A stretch of DNA of 64,000 nucleotides from the human T2T-CHM13v2.0 reference genome, Homo sapiens. The stretch lies in assembly GCF_009914755.1 (NCBI RefSeq), contig NC_060940.1; one strand, written 5' to 3'. The notes below the pieces were generated by a model, which saw only the letters and a list, made by a program, of their open reading frames with translations, was not told the origin of the DNA and did not search any database. Of this stretch, positions 1 to 44,215 are shown piece after piece (positions within the stretch are counted from its first letter, which is position 1; each line of letters starts with the position of its first letter). Both the position numbers and the translations under genes were made by a program.

Positions 1-243
<243 letters not shown>

Positions 244-354
244 TCAGCCCACCCTCAGCTCCCAGGGAGCTCCTGGCAGCTCCTGGACCTTTCTGCTGCA
301 CTGCACACCTGCTTACATACTGCACCTCAAAGCTCCACTCTCTAGATTTCCAGG

Positions 355-874
355 TGTGATGGTTAATCCTAGGTAACAACTGGTCTGGATTGAGGGATGC
401 CTAGACGGCTGGTGAAGCGCTGTTCCTGGGTGTGTCTGTGAGGGTGTTGCCAGAAGAGGCTGACATTTGTCAGTGGACTAGGAGAGGAAGACCCATCCTC
501 CATATGGGTGGGCACCGTCCAGTTGGCTGCCAGCATGGCTGGCACAAAGCAGGCGGAAGAAGGGGGACCAGCAGCTTGCTGAGTCCGCGTGCTGGCTCTG
601 TTCTGTGTCACGCCGGACACTTGGCCTCCTCTCCCCTTGCCCTTGGACATCAGACTCCAGGTTCTTTGGCCTTTAGACTCTGAGACTTACACCTCTCAGG
701 GGCTCTCAGGCCTTAGGCCTCAGACTGACAGCTGCACTGCTGGCTTCCCTGGTTTTAAGGCTGGCAGACTTGGACTGAATTATGCTACCAGCTTCTCTCT
801 TTCCTCAGCTTGCTGATGGCCTATCATGGGATTTCACCTTGTAATCGTGAGGCAATTCTCCCTAATAAACTCAT

Positions 875-7428: not shown

Positions 7429-7731
<303 letters not shown>

Positions 7732-7895
7732 TCAAGACCAGCCTGGGAAACACAGCAAGACCCCGTCTCTGAAAAAAAAAAAAAAAAAAAAAAAAAACAG
7801 AGAAAGAAAAACAGAAAATACTGGTGACATAATTTAGGCTTCTGGATAGAGTCCCATCTGAAACTGATTTACTCCAGGACTCTTCAGCTACAGTC

Positions 7896-8438
7896 TGTGA
7901 GGAAAAAACAAAACTTTCTCCTCTGCTGTCACAATATAGGATAATCAACACATAAGATTTCCGTGGCCAAATGTGTGGAGATTTCTCCCCAACACCAATC
8001 AATCCATTGAGTCTGCAGTGGATACACGCTGGATGTCCTCTAATTCAGTTTATTTCCAACACTATCCACCCAGACAGAGTGTCAAACCCCACAGGTTGAG
8101 GGCTCAGTCCCACGAGCATGTCCCCCCAATTCTCAATGCCAGTCACAAGCCCCCAGTTGCTTTATTTGTGCTTCTGACCAACTGACTATAAATCAGGGTT
8201 TCCATGACTCCCTCCTTGGGTTCCATTAATTTGCAGGAGCAGCTCTCAGCACTCAGGGAAACACTTAGGTTTACTGGCTTATTATAAAGGATGTCACAAT
8301 GGATACAGATGAAGGAAGAGGTGCACAGGGCAAAGCATGTGGGAAGGAGCGAAGAGCTTCCATACCCACCCTGGGCACGCCACCCTCCAGGAAGCTCCAA
8401 ACTGGGATACAAACCAGATATATATTTTACAATATCAC
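7896..8438 (-). mobile_element. MER21-like LTR
   Basis: TG...CA boundaries and MER21-like motifs (CCCACAGGTTGAGGGCTCAGTCCCAC; CTCAGGGAAACACTTA...GGTTTAC). Subfamily from recall. Confidence 0.6.
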
Positions 8439-9049
8439 AGAGTCAACAAACACCCCTTTCAGCTTAGGCTAGTCAGAGTAGCTTTTTGTTATCTGCAACT
8501 GAGTAGCTTGACTAATAAGAACTTTCATTAAGCACGGTCTGAAGAGATAGCCAATTCTGAGGGACAAAGGCTGCAGGGTAGAAGCATATGTTAACCACTA
8601 ATACCCAGCCTAAAATTGCTGGCCCTTTTACTATAATAGCATAAAAGGCCTCAAATAAACAAATCCAAATATCCTACACTTAAGCCACTCTAAGATTAAT
8701 CCCACAGGGCTTAAAACAGTAAGAGCTTTGTTCTGGGTCAAAGGGAAAGAGGAACCTAATACCCCACACTCACATCCCACACTCTCAACCCAGTCACTAG
8801 CAATGAGAATCTGCAAACTGGGTGCAGTGGCTCATGACCGTAATCCCAGCATTTTGGGAGGCCGAAATGGGAGGATCACTTGAAGTCAGGAGTTCAGGAC
8901 CATCCTGGGCAACACACGGAGGCCCTGTCTCTACAAAAACAAAATAAAATAATCAGCTGGGCAGGGTGGTGCACATGTGTAGTCCTAGCTACTCAGGAGG
9001 CTATGGCAGGAGGATCACTTGAGCCCAGGAATTTGGGAATAATGAGCTA

Positions 9050-9426
<377 letters not shown>

Positions 9427-10000
9427 TTAGCCAGGCATGGTGGTGCATGCTTGTAATCCCAGCTACTCAGGAGGCTGAGGCAGGAGAATCACTTGAACCC
9501 GGGAGGCAGAGGTTGCAGTGAGTTGACATTGCACCACTATACTCCGGCCTGGGTGACAGAGCGAGACTCCATCTCAAAAATAAATAAATAAATAAATAGA
9601 ATCTATATTCATCAATTGGTTAAAGAGACATTAAGAAGACAATTTTTTTCCTTCATGCCTCTGTATTGCAACTTATGCCAGTGTTTCTCATTTAAACCTT
9701 ACAGCAATCCTATAAAATAGATAACAGAATAGTAAGTATAGTGAAGAAACTGAAATTCAGATAGGTTATGCTAGGTAACTCAGGAAAAATAGGTAGTTGA
9801 GCTGGGGCTGCAAGGCTGCAAGTTCTAAAACCTATGCTCTTCCTCTGAATTCCAAGTTGTGTCACGACTTCAGCATATTCAATAGTAAAAGAGATCACAA
9901 AAGTGGAAGCTGCCAACCCACCATTAGGCTATTATGACAACACTCAAAGTATCACCAGTAAAATGATGATTGAGGCAACTGAAAAACAAAGCTAGGGAAA

Positions 10001-38977: not shown

Positions 38978-39106
<129 letters not shown>

Positions 39107-39722
39107 CTATCTCTAAAAGAAAAACACCAAAAACCAAAAAAGAGGGCGAGAGAGGGAAACAAAGCCAGACAGCAGTTAAAGTCACAAGGACAGATCTTAA
39201 TCTGTAATATACTGTTGCAATAGGGAACAGAGTCCAGTGTGAACTGAACTCCTATTTGTACAGAGAATGAGGGAATGGGAGTGGGGGTGAGGAGCAGGGG
39301 TTCAGTAAAGTCAAGGCAGTGAAAAATTACAAAACACATGAAGAGGGGAGGGGTTGGCCCAGGTGAAACCCATCTGGGCTTGCTAACTGGTGCTTATCAA
39401 CAGCGATGTTGAGCTCTTACTCTCCCACAGGAGCTGGGAGATGGGGCCCTATCCTCAGGTGTTGGCTGGAACAAACAGTAAGTTCTTTTGGCAGGCTTGA
39501 GTTTTCTCAGGCAGGCACTTTTAGAGGGTCATTCCAGGGATGAGACCTTGAGCTATTAGAAACTATGTCGGTGTTTGGCAGGGCACAGTGGCTCATGCCT
39601 GTAATCCCAGAACTTAGGGAGGCCAAGATGGGCAGATTGCTTGAGCCCAGGAGTTCGAGACCAGGCTGGCAACATGGTGAAACCCCGTCTCTACAAAAAA
39701 TGCAAAAATTAGCCAGTCTCAT

Positions 39723-40051
39723 TGTAGCAGGACGAGCCACAGACAAAACTCCTCAGACACTGGATTAAAGAAGGAAGAGGTTTATTCAGCCAGGAGTGTC
39801 GGCAGACTTGCGTCTTAAGAGCCGAGCTCCCTGAAAAAGAAATTCTTGGCCTTTTTAAAGGCTTACAACTCTAAGGGGTCCACGTGAAAAGGTCGTGATA
39901 AATCGAGCAAGCGGGGAACGTGACTGGGGGCTACATGTATCAGCTAACAGAACAGAAAGCTTTGCAATGCTTTTTCATACAATGTCTGGAATTTACGGAT
40001 AGCACAAGTAGTTTAGGTCAGGGGTTGATGTTATTATTATTACTTTTTTAA
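39723..40051 (-). mobile_element. Inverted partial LTR2B (3' part of U3, R, U5; 329 bp)
   Basis: Reverse complement of 40216-40544 with 10 substitutions by manual comparison. Confidence 0.93.
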
Positions 40052-40061
40052 TAAGGGGGAA

Positions 40062-40544
40062 TAAGGAAGGAGACCACTACTACTCCTGCTGTCCTTCTCC
40101 CCCCACCTTGCCTAGTTTACAAGACAGGAGGAAAGAAAAAAAGCAAAAAGTTAAAAAGAAACAAAAGTAAGATAAATAGCCAGACAAACTTGGCACCACC
40201 ACCCGGCCCTAGGAGTTAAAAAAGTAATAACAATAACATCAACCCCTGACCTAAACTACTTGTGCTATCTGTAAATTCCAGACATTGTATGAAAAAGCAT
40301 TGCAAAGCTTTCTGTTCTGTTAGCTGATACATGTAGCCCCCAGTCACGTTCCCCGCTTGCTCGATTTATCACGACCTTTTCACGTGGACCCCTTAGAGTT
40401 GTAAGCCTTTAAAAAGGCCAAGAATTTCTTTTTCAGGGAGCTCGGCTCTTAAGACGCAAGTCTGCTGACGCTCCCAGCCGAATAAACCTCTTCCTTCTTT
40501 AATCCGGTGTCTGATGAGTTTTGTCTGTGGCTTGTCCTGCTACA
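40062..40544 (+). mobile_element. Full-length LTR2B (HERV-E/Harlequin-type LTR), preceded by a polypurine tract
   Basis: Starts TAAGGAAGGAGACCACTACTACTCC, has AATAAA at 40481, ends GTCCTGCTACA. AAGGGGGAA (40053-40061) lies immediately upstream. Confidence 0.9.
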
Positions 40545-40670
40545 TCATAACCTGGCCCCAAAATAAAAATACAAAAAAAACTATGTTGGTGTCTGGCTAG
40601 CTTGGCCAAGGAGGGAATCTTTGTCAGATGACCAGGAAAGGCCTCCTAGAGGATCAGCCATCAGTGAGGA

Positions 40671-44215
<3,545 letters not shown>

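What the first reader, a model, noticed from the sequence alone, without database searches (positions are those of the whole stretch)
39719..40548. LTR2B palindrome integrated as one unit with two U5 ends: candidate fossil of fold-back reverse transcription
Seen: TCAT - [inverted U5-R-partial U3, 39723-40051] - T+AAGGGGGAA - [complete LTR2B, 40062-40544] - TCAT. The arms are 329 bp each (39723-40051 / 40216-40544) around a 164-bp spacer. Both outer ends are the exact U5 terminus (TGTAGCAGG.../...CTGCTACA). One 4-bp TSD brackets the whole composite, and removing it restores a continuous Alu-monomer tail (AGCCAGTCTCAT-AACCTGG). Known: class I ERVs typically make 4-bp TSDs, and a solo LTR does not keep the PPT. 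The complete copy is therefore a 3' LTR, and this is neither an ordinary solo LTR nor two independent insertions. Inference: minus-strand cDNA passed the PPT, folded back at a TTAA microhomology (40048-40051 vs 40216-40219), recopied U3-R-U5, and the ~0.8-kb U5/U5 product was integrated.
Basis: partly seen in the sequence, partly recalled or inferred. Interest (0 to 1): 0.8.

Follow-up and report, generated by a model that had tools for sequence, protein, structure and literature searches.

The report
Retroviral LTR palindrome, two U5 ends
An ancient retrovirus left an 822-base mirror-image copy of its end sequence here, apparently inserted in one step from a misfolded DNA copy, and a few smaller insertions of the same odd kind exist elsewhere in the genome.

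Summary
Arms 39723-40051 and 40216-40544 form a 329-nt inverted repeat with 10 mismatches. Both outer ends are the family's U5 terminus, TCAT flanks both sides, and a complete 483-nt HERV-E-type LTR (40062-40544) sits behind a G-run like the family's polypurine tract.

Family data support a single integrase-made insertion. All 19 solo-like copies have 4-nt flanking repeats. The G-run word occurs before 4 of 6 3' LTRs and 0 of 32 other copies.

A genome scan for two outward-facing U5 ends (about 0.04 expected by chance) found three more independent loci. Two are clean: C12, 209 bp, AAGG/AAGG; and C1, 276 bp, where an empty-site test inside an Alu passes. These small ones hold R-U5 only, as expected of self-primed minus-strand strong-stop DNA.

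Best reading (0.62): a strand-switched or fold-back reverse transcript with two U5 ends, inserted in one event. Not shown:
- the TTAA microhomology
- the "continuous Alu tail"
- how a hairpin became a duplex with two ends

The arms (3.0%) are more alike than provirus LTR pairs (5.1-6.7%), which means a later insertion or gene conversion. No orthologue test was possible, and no precedent turned up in the searchable literature. Interest is moderate.

The parts
39560..39579 (+). Left copy of the 20-nt direct repeat (TSD) of the older Alu-monomer-type retroposon that hosts the composite
   Evidence: family D1: 39560-39579 and 40578-40597, 90% identical
39580..39718 (+). Left part of the host Alu-monomer-like element. 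Alu homology runs to about 39713-39716.
   Evidence: 141 hits of the left flank to other Alus in the window, most ending at query positions 154-157
39719..39722 (.). Left copy of the 4-bp target-site duplication, TCAT
   Evidence: sequence. Family habit of 4-bp TSDs: 19 of 19 solo-like copies with 4/4 or 3/4.
39723..40051 (-). Inverted partial LTR (left arm): family LTR positions 483 down to 155, i.e. U5, R and the 3' part of U3. The outer end is the exact U5 terminus.
   Evidence: (G000:C16:28869723-28870051, minus strand, 97%, query 177-505)
40052..40061 (+). Junction: one T, then AAGGGGGAA. It resembles the family's polypurine tract (the plus-strand primer site) directly before U3.
   Evidence: GGGGGA upstream of 4 of 6 3' LTRs and 0 of 32 other copies. 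Caveat: also 7 of 10 to the LTR's first 10 nt.
40062..40544 (+). Positions 40216-40544 form the right arm.
   Evidence: (40 other copies, 86-93% identical, most spanning query 23-505)
40052..40215 (+). 164-nt single-copy centre of the palindrome: junction plus U3 positions 1-154
   Evidence: (164 nt between the arms)
40408..40486 (+). Promoter-to-poly(A) landmarks of the complete LTR: TATA-like TTTAAAAAGG at 40408-40417 (LTR 347-356), GGGAGC at 40436-40441, GCTCCC at 40470-40475, AATAAA at 40481-40486. They place the start of R near LTR position 375 (inferred).
   Evidence: sequence read. The three small composites elsewhere reach no deeper than LTR 364-388.
40545..40548 (.). Right copy of the 4-bp target-site duplication, TCAT
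40549..40577 (+). Right part of the host retroposon: a short unique stretch, then an A-rich tail
   Evidence: It lies directly before the second copy of the 20-nt repeat.
40578..40597 (+). Right copy of the 20-nt direct repeat of the host retroposon
   Evidence: family D1

Best explanation
The 822-bp composite is a single integrase-made insertion of an aberrant reverse transcript of a HERV-E-type retrovirus.

Proposed route:
1. A minus-strand DNA was made normally through the first strand transfer (U5, R, U3, polypurine tract).
2. It stopped at or just past the 5' edge of the polypurine tract.
3. Its 3' end then switched onto minus-strand DNA at U3 position 155, either its own 5' part (fold-back) or the copy made from the second packaged RNA.
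4. It copied back out to the U5 terminus.
5. The resulting short linear DNA carried a proper U5 end (...CA) at both sides. Integrase joined both ends to the target 4 bp apart, giving the TCAT duplication.

Shown: the anatomy, the exact termini, the TSD, the PPT-like word, that the family makes 4-bp TSDs, and that other U5/U5 composites with 4-nt flanking repeats exist.

Inferred: that the switch happened during reverse transcription; the place and cause of the stop; whether the switch was within one molecule or between two; and how both ends came to be duplex.

The smaller composites elsewhere look like the earlier-stage version of the same accident: self-primed or mutually primed minus-strand strong-stop DNA that holds R-U5 only.
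For: - Exact geometry.
- LTR boundaries fixed by 40 other copies and their printed ends.
- The family makes 4-bp TSDs: 12 of 19 solo-like copies have 4/4 and 7 of 19 have 3/4. The outer pair here is 4/4, and the inner boundaries have no matching 4-mers.
- GGGGGA lies directly upstream of the complete copy, as in 4 of 6 3' LTRs and 0 of 32 other copies.
- Both flanks lie inside one older retroposon bracketed by its own 20-nt repeat, so the flanks are not rearranged.
- Recurrence: the scan for two outward U5 ends over inner lengths 17-504 gave 4 places, which are 3 independent loci, against 0.04 expected. The inward-facing control gave 0, and reversed-pattern controls gave 0 in every call.
- C12 (L046, 209 bp): flanks AAGG/AAGG, turn at the self-complementary words GGGAGC/GCTCCC, 28-nt centre.
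- C1 (L043, 276 bp): removing it plus one 4-mer restores an ungapped Alu in 75 of 87 alignments, against 0 of 87 with both 4-mers kept. Its interior is several re-copied minus-sense R pieces, which fits repeated polymerase jumps.
- All three small composites reach no deeper than LTR 364-388, just past the TATA-like box. This is as expected if they stem from strong-stop DNA.
Against: - No orthologous empty site could be examined, so 'one event' rests on anatomy alone.
- The PPT identification rests on about 8-10 nt and is only marginally better than a duplicated LTR start (8 of 10 with a shift against 7 of 10). The family's CTCAAAG just upstream of the PPT is absent here.
- The arms differ by 3.0%, against 5.1-6.7% for four provirus LTR pairs (P = 0.019). 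Non-CpG differences are 2 of 329, against 7-15 per roughly 330. If not due to gene conversion or a late insertion, this would fit a duplication made after integration.
- A fold-back hairpin has one duplex end only, and the step that gives two is not evidenced.
- Folding of the presumed minus strands shows no special structure (z = 0.27).
- The window's type (with U3 and PPT) is so far a single case. The pattern found only this locus, and composites with more than 504 nt between the two end words could not be scanned.
- The third locus (C2) cannot be tested, because the far end of its provirus is truncated.
Confidence: 0.62

Rival explanations
1. The U5/U5 DNA was made by host end-joining, not by reverse transcriptase. 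Two right-end fragments of unintegrated viral DNA, one broken at the PPT and one within U3, were ligated head to head in the cell, and integrase then inserted the product.
For: The junction has a 1-nt filler (T at 40052) and at most 2-4 nt of possible microhomology, which is also the signature of end-joining. The outcome (two U5 ends, 4-bp TSD) is the same as in the best explanation. It also explains directly why both ends are duplex.
Against: The C1 composite holds three to four re-copied minus-sense R segments in a row. The C12 composite turns exactly at a pair of self-complementary 6-mers. Both are more natural for a polymerase priming on short pairings than for ligating fragments. All three small composites stop at LTR 364-388, the presumed 5' end of the RNA, which points to strong-stop products rather than random breaks.
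Confidence: 0.15
2. A normal provirus or 3' LTR was integrated here with a TCAT duplication. Later a chromosomal event (a replication template switch or fold-back repair with deletion) replaced the 5' LTR and interior with an inverted copy of part of the 3' LTR.
For: The arms are more alike (3.0%; 2 non-CpG differences) than the LTR pairs of four family proviruses (5.1-6.7%; 7-15 non-CpG differences). A duplication younger than the integration would explain this. Fold-back inversions by hairpin formation are a known class of chromosomal rearrangement (PMC7467729, search listing and abstract only).
Against: The inverted copy would have to end exactly at the last base of U5 and abut the old left TCAT exactly. 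TCAT is not self-complementary, so it offers no pairing for such a switch (reasoning). The same exact-terminus-plus-4-nt-repeat geometry recurs at C12 and C1, which independent chromosomal accidents would not reproduce. The window LTR is only 2.4% from the family's majority states against a median near 3.3%, which fits a late insertion and so explains the low arm divergence without a second event.
Confidence: 0.13
3. Two independent insertions in opposite orientation at nearly the same spot, trimmed by later deletions.
For: LTR copies do nest and cluster. The C2 locus shows that an inverted U5 piece can sit beside a provirus.
Against: Neither copy has its own TSD: the 4-mers at the inner boundaries do not match the outer ones. 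Only the outer pair matches. Deletions would have to stop exactly at both termini. The arms differ from the family's majority states at only 6 of 308 positions each, and 4 of these are shared, so they derive from one source molecule.
Confidence: 0.04
4. Assembly artefact: a palindrome created by a chimeric or fold-back read.
For: Library-made fold-back reads can create false palindromes.
Against: The arms differ at 10 positions. Eight are CpG-type, including one CpG decayed to CA in one arm and to TG in the other. That is evolutionary divergence, not a copying artefact. The flanks are unique and continuous (one search finds this place once).
Confidence: 0.01

Closest known systems
Self-priming of retroviral minus-strand strong-stop DNA (HIV-1 in vitro; Guo et al. 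1997 and Driscoll & Hughes 2000, as cited in PMC6088434)
   Same: A nascent minus-strand DNA folds on itself, primes on its own 5' part and copies back to the U5 end, giving U5'-...-U5 on one strand. The C12 composite (R-U5 only, turn at self-complementary words in R) has just this form.
   Different: The review describes it as a dead-end product of in vitro reactions that is suppressed by nucleocapsid protein and not detected in endogenous reactions (passages read). Here the products are integrated in a germline with TSDs. The window's composite also contains all of U3 and a PPT-like word, so its switch came after the first strand transfer, not at strong stop.
Ordinary solo LTR or provirus of HERV-E (LTR2 / LTR2B / LTR2C groups; PMC4379568)
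   Same: Same LTR sequence family (86-93% identity to 40 copies), same termini and same 4-bp TSD.
   Different: A provirus or solo LTR has a U3 start at its left outer end. This element has a U5 terminus at both outer ends, two copies in inverted order, and a PPT-like word between them.
Concerted integration of two U5 ends by retroviral integrase in vitro (standard intasome assays; recalled, not read here)
   Same: Two U5 ends joined to a target with the virus-specific stagger.
   Different: That is a laboratory substrate choice. Here it would have happened naturally, with an aberrant cDNA. The search for 'two U5 ends / U5-U5' found no paper on natural cases.
Twin priming of L1 elements, giving inverted or truncated L1 insertions (recalled, not read here)
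   Same: One insertion event that contains two inverted parts of the same element within a single TSD, produced by a second priming event during reverse transcription.
   Different: L1 uses target-primed reverse transcription on the chromosome, with long variable TSDs and a poly(A) tail. Here the ends are LTR termini, the TSD is the 4 bp of an integrase, and the product would be made before integration.
Retroviral autointegration products (Lee & Coffin 1990, seen only as a reference-list entry in PMC12789967; the content is recalled)
   Same: An aberrant outcome of integrase acting on viral DNA that can invert viral segments.
   Different: Autointegration gives rearranged circles or internal inversions of the viral DNA itself. 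It does not give a short linear palindrome with two U5 ends inserted in host DNA.

Membership tests
   40 other copies at 86-93% identity, most spanning query 23-505 (window 40062-40544)
   12 of 19 solo-like copies have 4/4 and 7 of 19 have 3/4. The window has TCAT/TCAT.
   6 5' LTRs are followed by the same word, tttcttggtt(c/t)cctg. That this matches tRNA-Glu is recalled, not tested against a tRNA sequence.
   No Dfam or Repbase library is on hand. The review PMC4379568 lists LTR2B loci in other coordinates and does not list this locus in the passages read.
Ordinary solo LTR | One LTR, U3 start at one outer end and U5 end at the other, no internal sequence | tested here: not met
   two inverted copies, both outer ends U5, G-run before the complete copy
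Ordinary provirus | Two LTRs in direct orientation around an internal region | tested here: not met
   the copies are inverted, and only 10 nt lie between the arm and the complete LTR
Self-primed minus-strand strong-stop DNA product | Contains only R and U5 sequences, no U3 and no PPT | tested here: not met
   the window composite holds LTR positions 1-483 plus the G-run. The criterion is met by the C12 composite (deepest position 364) and by C1 (368-388).
Self-primed minus-strand strong-stop DNA product | The turn lies at a self-complementary stretch at the 3' end of the nascent strand | tested here: inconclusive
   TTAA (self-complementary) lies at the arm's inner end, but the family sequence at the matching place before the PPT reads TCAA. 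Folding gives no signal.
Integrase-mediated concerted insertion | Both inserted ends are exact LTR termini ending in CA, flanked by a direct repeat of the family's length | tested here: met
Integrase-mediated concerted insertion | An empty site with a single copy of the repeat exists in genomes that lack the insertion | not testable with these tools
   No other primate genome or human assembly is held. The in-genome substitute failed for this locus (0 crossing Alu alignments) and succeeded for the C1 locus.

The most novel reading that the evidence does not exclude
Primate genomes hold a small, unrecognised class of insertions made from 'dead-end' reverse-transcription intermediates: self-primed or mutually primed strong-stop DNA (about 200-280 bp, R-U5 only) and, as here, a post-transfer fold-back that kept U3 and the plus-strand primer site (822 bp). 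All were inserted by integrase acting on two U5 ends. They would be natural records that (i) fold-back or inter-copy priming occurs inside real infecting particles, not only in vitro, (ii) an intasome can assemble on two U5 ends in vivo, and (iii) the two packaged genomes can prime on each other to give a linear duplex palindrome. The junction at the 5' edge of the polypurine tract would mark run-off at the end of a plus-strand primer.
Probability: 0.45. Interest if true: 0.7.

Novelty: new variant of a known kind. Interest (0 to 1): 0.55.

Why it matters
Self-priming and aberrant strand switching by reverse transcriptase are textbook in vitro side reactions, treated as dead ends. If these composites are what they seem, such products were completed, recognised by integrase at two U5 ends and fixed in the germline. 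That gives a natural read-out of reverse-transcription errors in an extinct virus, and a search image (outward-facing U5 termini within one TSD) that can be applied to any LTR family and to integrated DNA of present-day retroviruses and vectors.

For genome annotation, these elements are currently bound to be read as two unrelated LTR fragments.

Locally, the element is a 329-bp-arm inverted repeat carrying promoter-bearing LTR sequence in an intron of a long IL27 transcript model, about 240 bp downstream of that model's first exon. No function was tested or is claimed.

Tried and rejected
- **Rfam scan of 39000-41500:** 0 families.
- **DNA folding of the presumed minus strands:** the R-U5 strand (108 nt) and the strand up to the PPT (497 nt) both gave z = 0.27. 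No special hairpin appears, so the turns rest on short words only.
- **Empty-site test by homology for this locus:** 0 Alu alignments cross the junction.
- **Wide-gap patterns:** these were meant to capture composites of any length and to use the 822-bp composite itself as a positive control. A different anchor pair served as positive control instead.
- **Full list of the 924 U5-terminus hits:** only the first 100 are printed, so no complete pairwise analysis was possible.
- **C2 locus (L044/L045):** first taken as a third clean case, then set aside. Its left 'terminus' continues into the primer-binding-site word, so it is the U5 of a deleted provirus's 5' LTR. That provirus's far end is truncated, so there is no TSD test. 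L044 and L045 are one locus in a segmental duplication (98.5% over 3.2 kb).
- **Literature:** nine searches found no description of integrated U5/U5 or fold-back LTR composites. The library lacks most subscription journals, where the older retrovirology literature sits, so absence from print is not established.
- **Rejected readings:** two independent insertions and assembly artefact (see rivals).
Full report
**1. What is there**

- TCAT
- an inverted partial LTR (39723-40051)
- T plus AAGGGGGAA (40052-40061)
- a complete LTR (40062-40544)
- TCAT

The repeat finder reports one inverted pair, 39723-40051 / 40216-40544, 329 nt, 97% complementary, with 164 nt between the arms. That is 10 mismatches of 329.

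A search of the window's own genome with 40040-40548 returned 40 other copies at 86-93% identity. Most span query 23-505, i.e. window 40062-40544, and the left arm itself came back as a minus-strand match to query 177-505. The printed ends of those copies show a family LTR of about 483 nt that starts TAAGG and ends CTGCTACA. Both outer ends of the composite are therefore true U5 termini, and the right-hand copy is complete.

On the LTR ruler the composite is [minus 483..155] + 10 nt + [plus 1..483]. Rfam finds nothing here.

**2. Is it one insertion?**

The family makes 4-bp target-site duplications. Of 19 solo-like copies with both exact ends, 12 have identical flanking 4-mers and 7 have 3 of 4. 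Here the outer pair is TCAT/TCAT, while the 4-mers at the inner boundaries match nothing. Neither copy has a duplication of its own.

Each arm differs from the family's strongly predominant base at 6 of 308 positions, and 4 of these are shared between the arms. The arms therefore come from one source.

The whole block 39580-40577 lies between two copies of a 20-nt direct repeat (39560-39579 / 40578-40597, 18 of 20), with an A-rich run before the second copy. Both flanks thus belong to one older Alu-monomer-type retroposon and have not been rearranged.

Alu homology of the left flank ends at about 39713-39716, and none of the 141 alignments of the computed empty site crosses the junction.

**3. 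The PPT question**

Six 3' LTRs of proviruses in the fetched set are all preceded by ...CTCAAAG plus a G-run directly before TAAGG. The word GGGGGA occurs in the last 14 nt upstream in 4 of 6 of these and in 0 of 32 other copies (solo or 5' LTRs). The window has it.

The evidence is thin, however:
- Only about 8-10 nt are retained, and the family's CTCAAAG is absent.
- The 10-mer matches the family PPT at up to 8 of 10 positions, and only with a 1-nt shift. It matches the LTR's own first 10 nt at 7 of 10.
- The TTAA 'microhomology' is simply the inner end of the arm. The family has TCAA at the corresponding place before the PPT, so 2-4 nt of shared sequence is possible but not shown.

If the piece is the PPT, the junction falls at the 5' edge of what would be the plus-strand primer. 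That suggests the nascent minus strand stopped there, by pausing or by running off a template that ended with that primer. This is an inference.

**4. Recurrence elsewhere in the genome**

A pattern for the U5 terminus has 480 + 444 matches genome-wide and 0 for the reversed control. Chance predicts 0.04 outward-facing pairs within 600 bp.

Patterns asking for two outward-facing U5 ends were run over inner lengths of 17-504 nt. They found four places:
- C1:206680886-206681161
- C2:87210816-87211033
- C2:112186597-112186814
- C12:113132972-113133180

A positive-control pattern (inverted U5 end followed by a U3 start) returned only the window's locus. An inward-facing control returned nothing.

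The two C2 places are one locus in an inverted segmental duplication (98.5% over 3.2 kb).

*C12 (209 bp).* This is a clean fold-back, [minus 483..409][plus 364..483 with a 26-nt tandem duplication]. It has a 28-nt centre, turns at the self-complementary words GGGAGC/GCTCCC, and has flanks AAGG/AAGG.

*C1 (276 bp).* It lies in an Alu with flanks CTAC/CTAT. Removing it plus one 4-mer restores an ungapped Alu in 75 of 87 crossing alignments, while keeping both 4-mers forces a gap in 87 of 87. Its interior is a run of re-copied minus-sense R pieces, ending in a 38-nt plus-sense U5.

*C2.* This locus is different. Its left U5 runs on into the primer-binding-site word, so it belongs to the 5' LTR of a heavily deleted provirus whose U3 is replaced by a short inverted U5 end. 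The provirus's far end is truncated, so no TSD test is possible.

All three small composites reach no deeper into the LTR than positions 364-388, just past the TATA-like box at 347-356. [quoted passage not shown]

**5. Mechanism**

[quoted passage not shown] The review I read in passages describes the products as dead ends, suppressed by nucleocapsid protein and not detected in endogenous reactions (PMC6088434). The C12 composite has exactly the form of such a product.

The window's composite is a later-stage relative.

The 4-bp duplications imply concerted joining of two duplex ends, and a simple hairpin has only one. Two routes would supply the second end:
- The fold-back strand is copied from a primer at its 3' end.
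- The 3' end primes on the minus strand made from the second packaged RNA, while its own 5' half is covered by plus-strand strong-stop DNA.

Neither route is evidenced here. DNA folding of the presumed strands shows nothing special (z = 0.27).

A rival that the data do not exclude is head-to-head ligation of two viral DNA right ends by host end-joining before integration. The multiple re-copied segments at C1, the turn at complementary words at C12 and the common stop at the start of R all favour polymerase switching.

**6. Age, and the main point against**

The arms differ by 3.0% (8 CpG-type and 2 other differences). Four family proviruses have 5'/3' LTR divergences of 5.1-6.7%, with 7-15 non-CpG differences in the arm-equivalent part. 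The chance of 10 or fewer differences at the provirus rate is 0.019.

With the 0.3% per My clock used in the HERV-E review (PMC4379568, passages and table read), the arms give about 10 My (5-19) and the proviruses 17-22 My.

Three readings are open:
- A late insertion. The window LTR is 2.4% from the family's majority states, in the lower half of a 0.9-8.3% range.
- Gene conversion between the arms.
- A duplication made after integration. This needs a chromosomal breakpoint exactly at the last base of U5, abutting the old TCAT, and it would not explain the same geometry at C12 and C1.

One CpG decayed to CA in one arm and TG in the other. The arms have therefore evolved apart for some time, which also excludes an assembly artefact.

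**7. Known or new**

Nine full-text searches and passages from three papers gave no description of integrated U5/U5 or fold-back LTR composites. The library lacks most subscription journals, so this is not proof of novelty.

I file the element as a HERV-E-type LTR by sequence, termini and TSD. It is neither an ordinary solo LTR nor a provirus, and the window's copy does not meet the 'R-U5 only' criterion of a self-primed strong-stop product. It works like a fold-back or strand-switch product made after the first transfer.

**8. Verdict**

One insertion of an aberrant cDNA with two U5 ends is the best reading (0.62). The specific TTAA hairpin route is one of several.
- The finding is a new variant of a known kind, of moderate interest (0.55). 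Its value is raised by the further loci found here, and limited by the lack of an orthologue test and by there being only one example of the post-transfer type.

Noticed in passing
L046 1501-1709 (G000:C12:113132972-113133180): A 209-bp fold-back of R-U5 only, with two U5 termini, flanks AAGG/AAGG, a 28-nt centre, a turn at GGGAGC/GCTCCC and a 26-nt internal tandem duplication. It has the form of an integrated self-primed minus-strand strong-stop DNA.
   Followed up: partly
L043 1501-1776 (G000:C1:206680886-206681161): A 276-bp composite with two U5 termini inside an Alu, flanks CTAC/CTAT. The empty-site test passes (75 of 87 against 0 of 87). The interior is three to four re-copied minus-sense R segments, each ending near LTR 368-388, then a 38-nt plus-sense U5.
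   Followed up: partly
L044 1501-1718 and L047 about 7546-10000 (G000:C2:87208400-87211033); duplicate at L045: A heavily deleted provirus whose 5' LTR lacks U3 and is capped by a 55-nt inverted U5 end after about 55 nt of unassigned sequence. It may be a full-length relative of the U5/U5 class. Its 3' LTR end is truncated, so no TSD test is possible. The locus is present twice, in an inverted segmental duplication (98.5% identity).
   Followed up: partly
window 40062-40066 and the LTR starts in L002-L042: This LTR family starts with TA (TAAGG) rather than the usual TG, in nearly all copies printed. The most diverged copy (L034) has TGAGG. The U3 end would thus lack the canonical CA on its processed strand, whereas a U5/U5 molecule has two canonical CA ends. 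Whether this favours U5/U5 integration is speculation.
   Followed up: no
5' LTR copies in L005, L010, L011, L025, L031, L038: The word after the 5' LTR is tttct followed by tggtt(c/t)cctg. Five bases, not the usual two, lie between the integrated U5 end and the TGG that would start a primer-binding site.
   Followed up: no
window 39560-39579 / 40578-40597: A 20-nt direct repeat (18 of 20) brackets an Alu-monomer-like element with an A-rich tail. About 19 nt between the end of Alu homology (about 39716) and the A-rich tail, interrupted by the composite, match no Alu in the window.
   Followed up: partly
window 39090-39477 versus 39719-40548: By the hub's gene table, the first exon of an alternative IL27 transcript ends about 240 bp upstream of the composite. 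The complete LTR has the same orientation as IL27, so the palindrome sits in that transcript's first intron. No expression data were examined.
   Followed up: no
L023 and L024 (G000:C16:29025086-29025566 and C16:28650680-28651160): Two copies of another LTR of this family, with identical flanks in opposite orientation about 375 kb apart on the same chromosome as the window. They are presumably part of the 16p11.2 segmental duplications and are unrelated to the composite.
   Followed up: no
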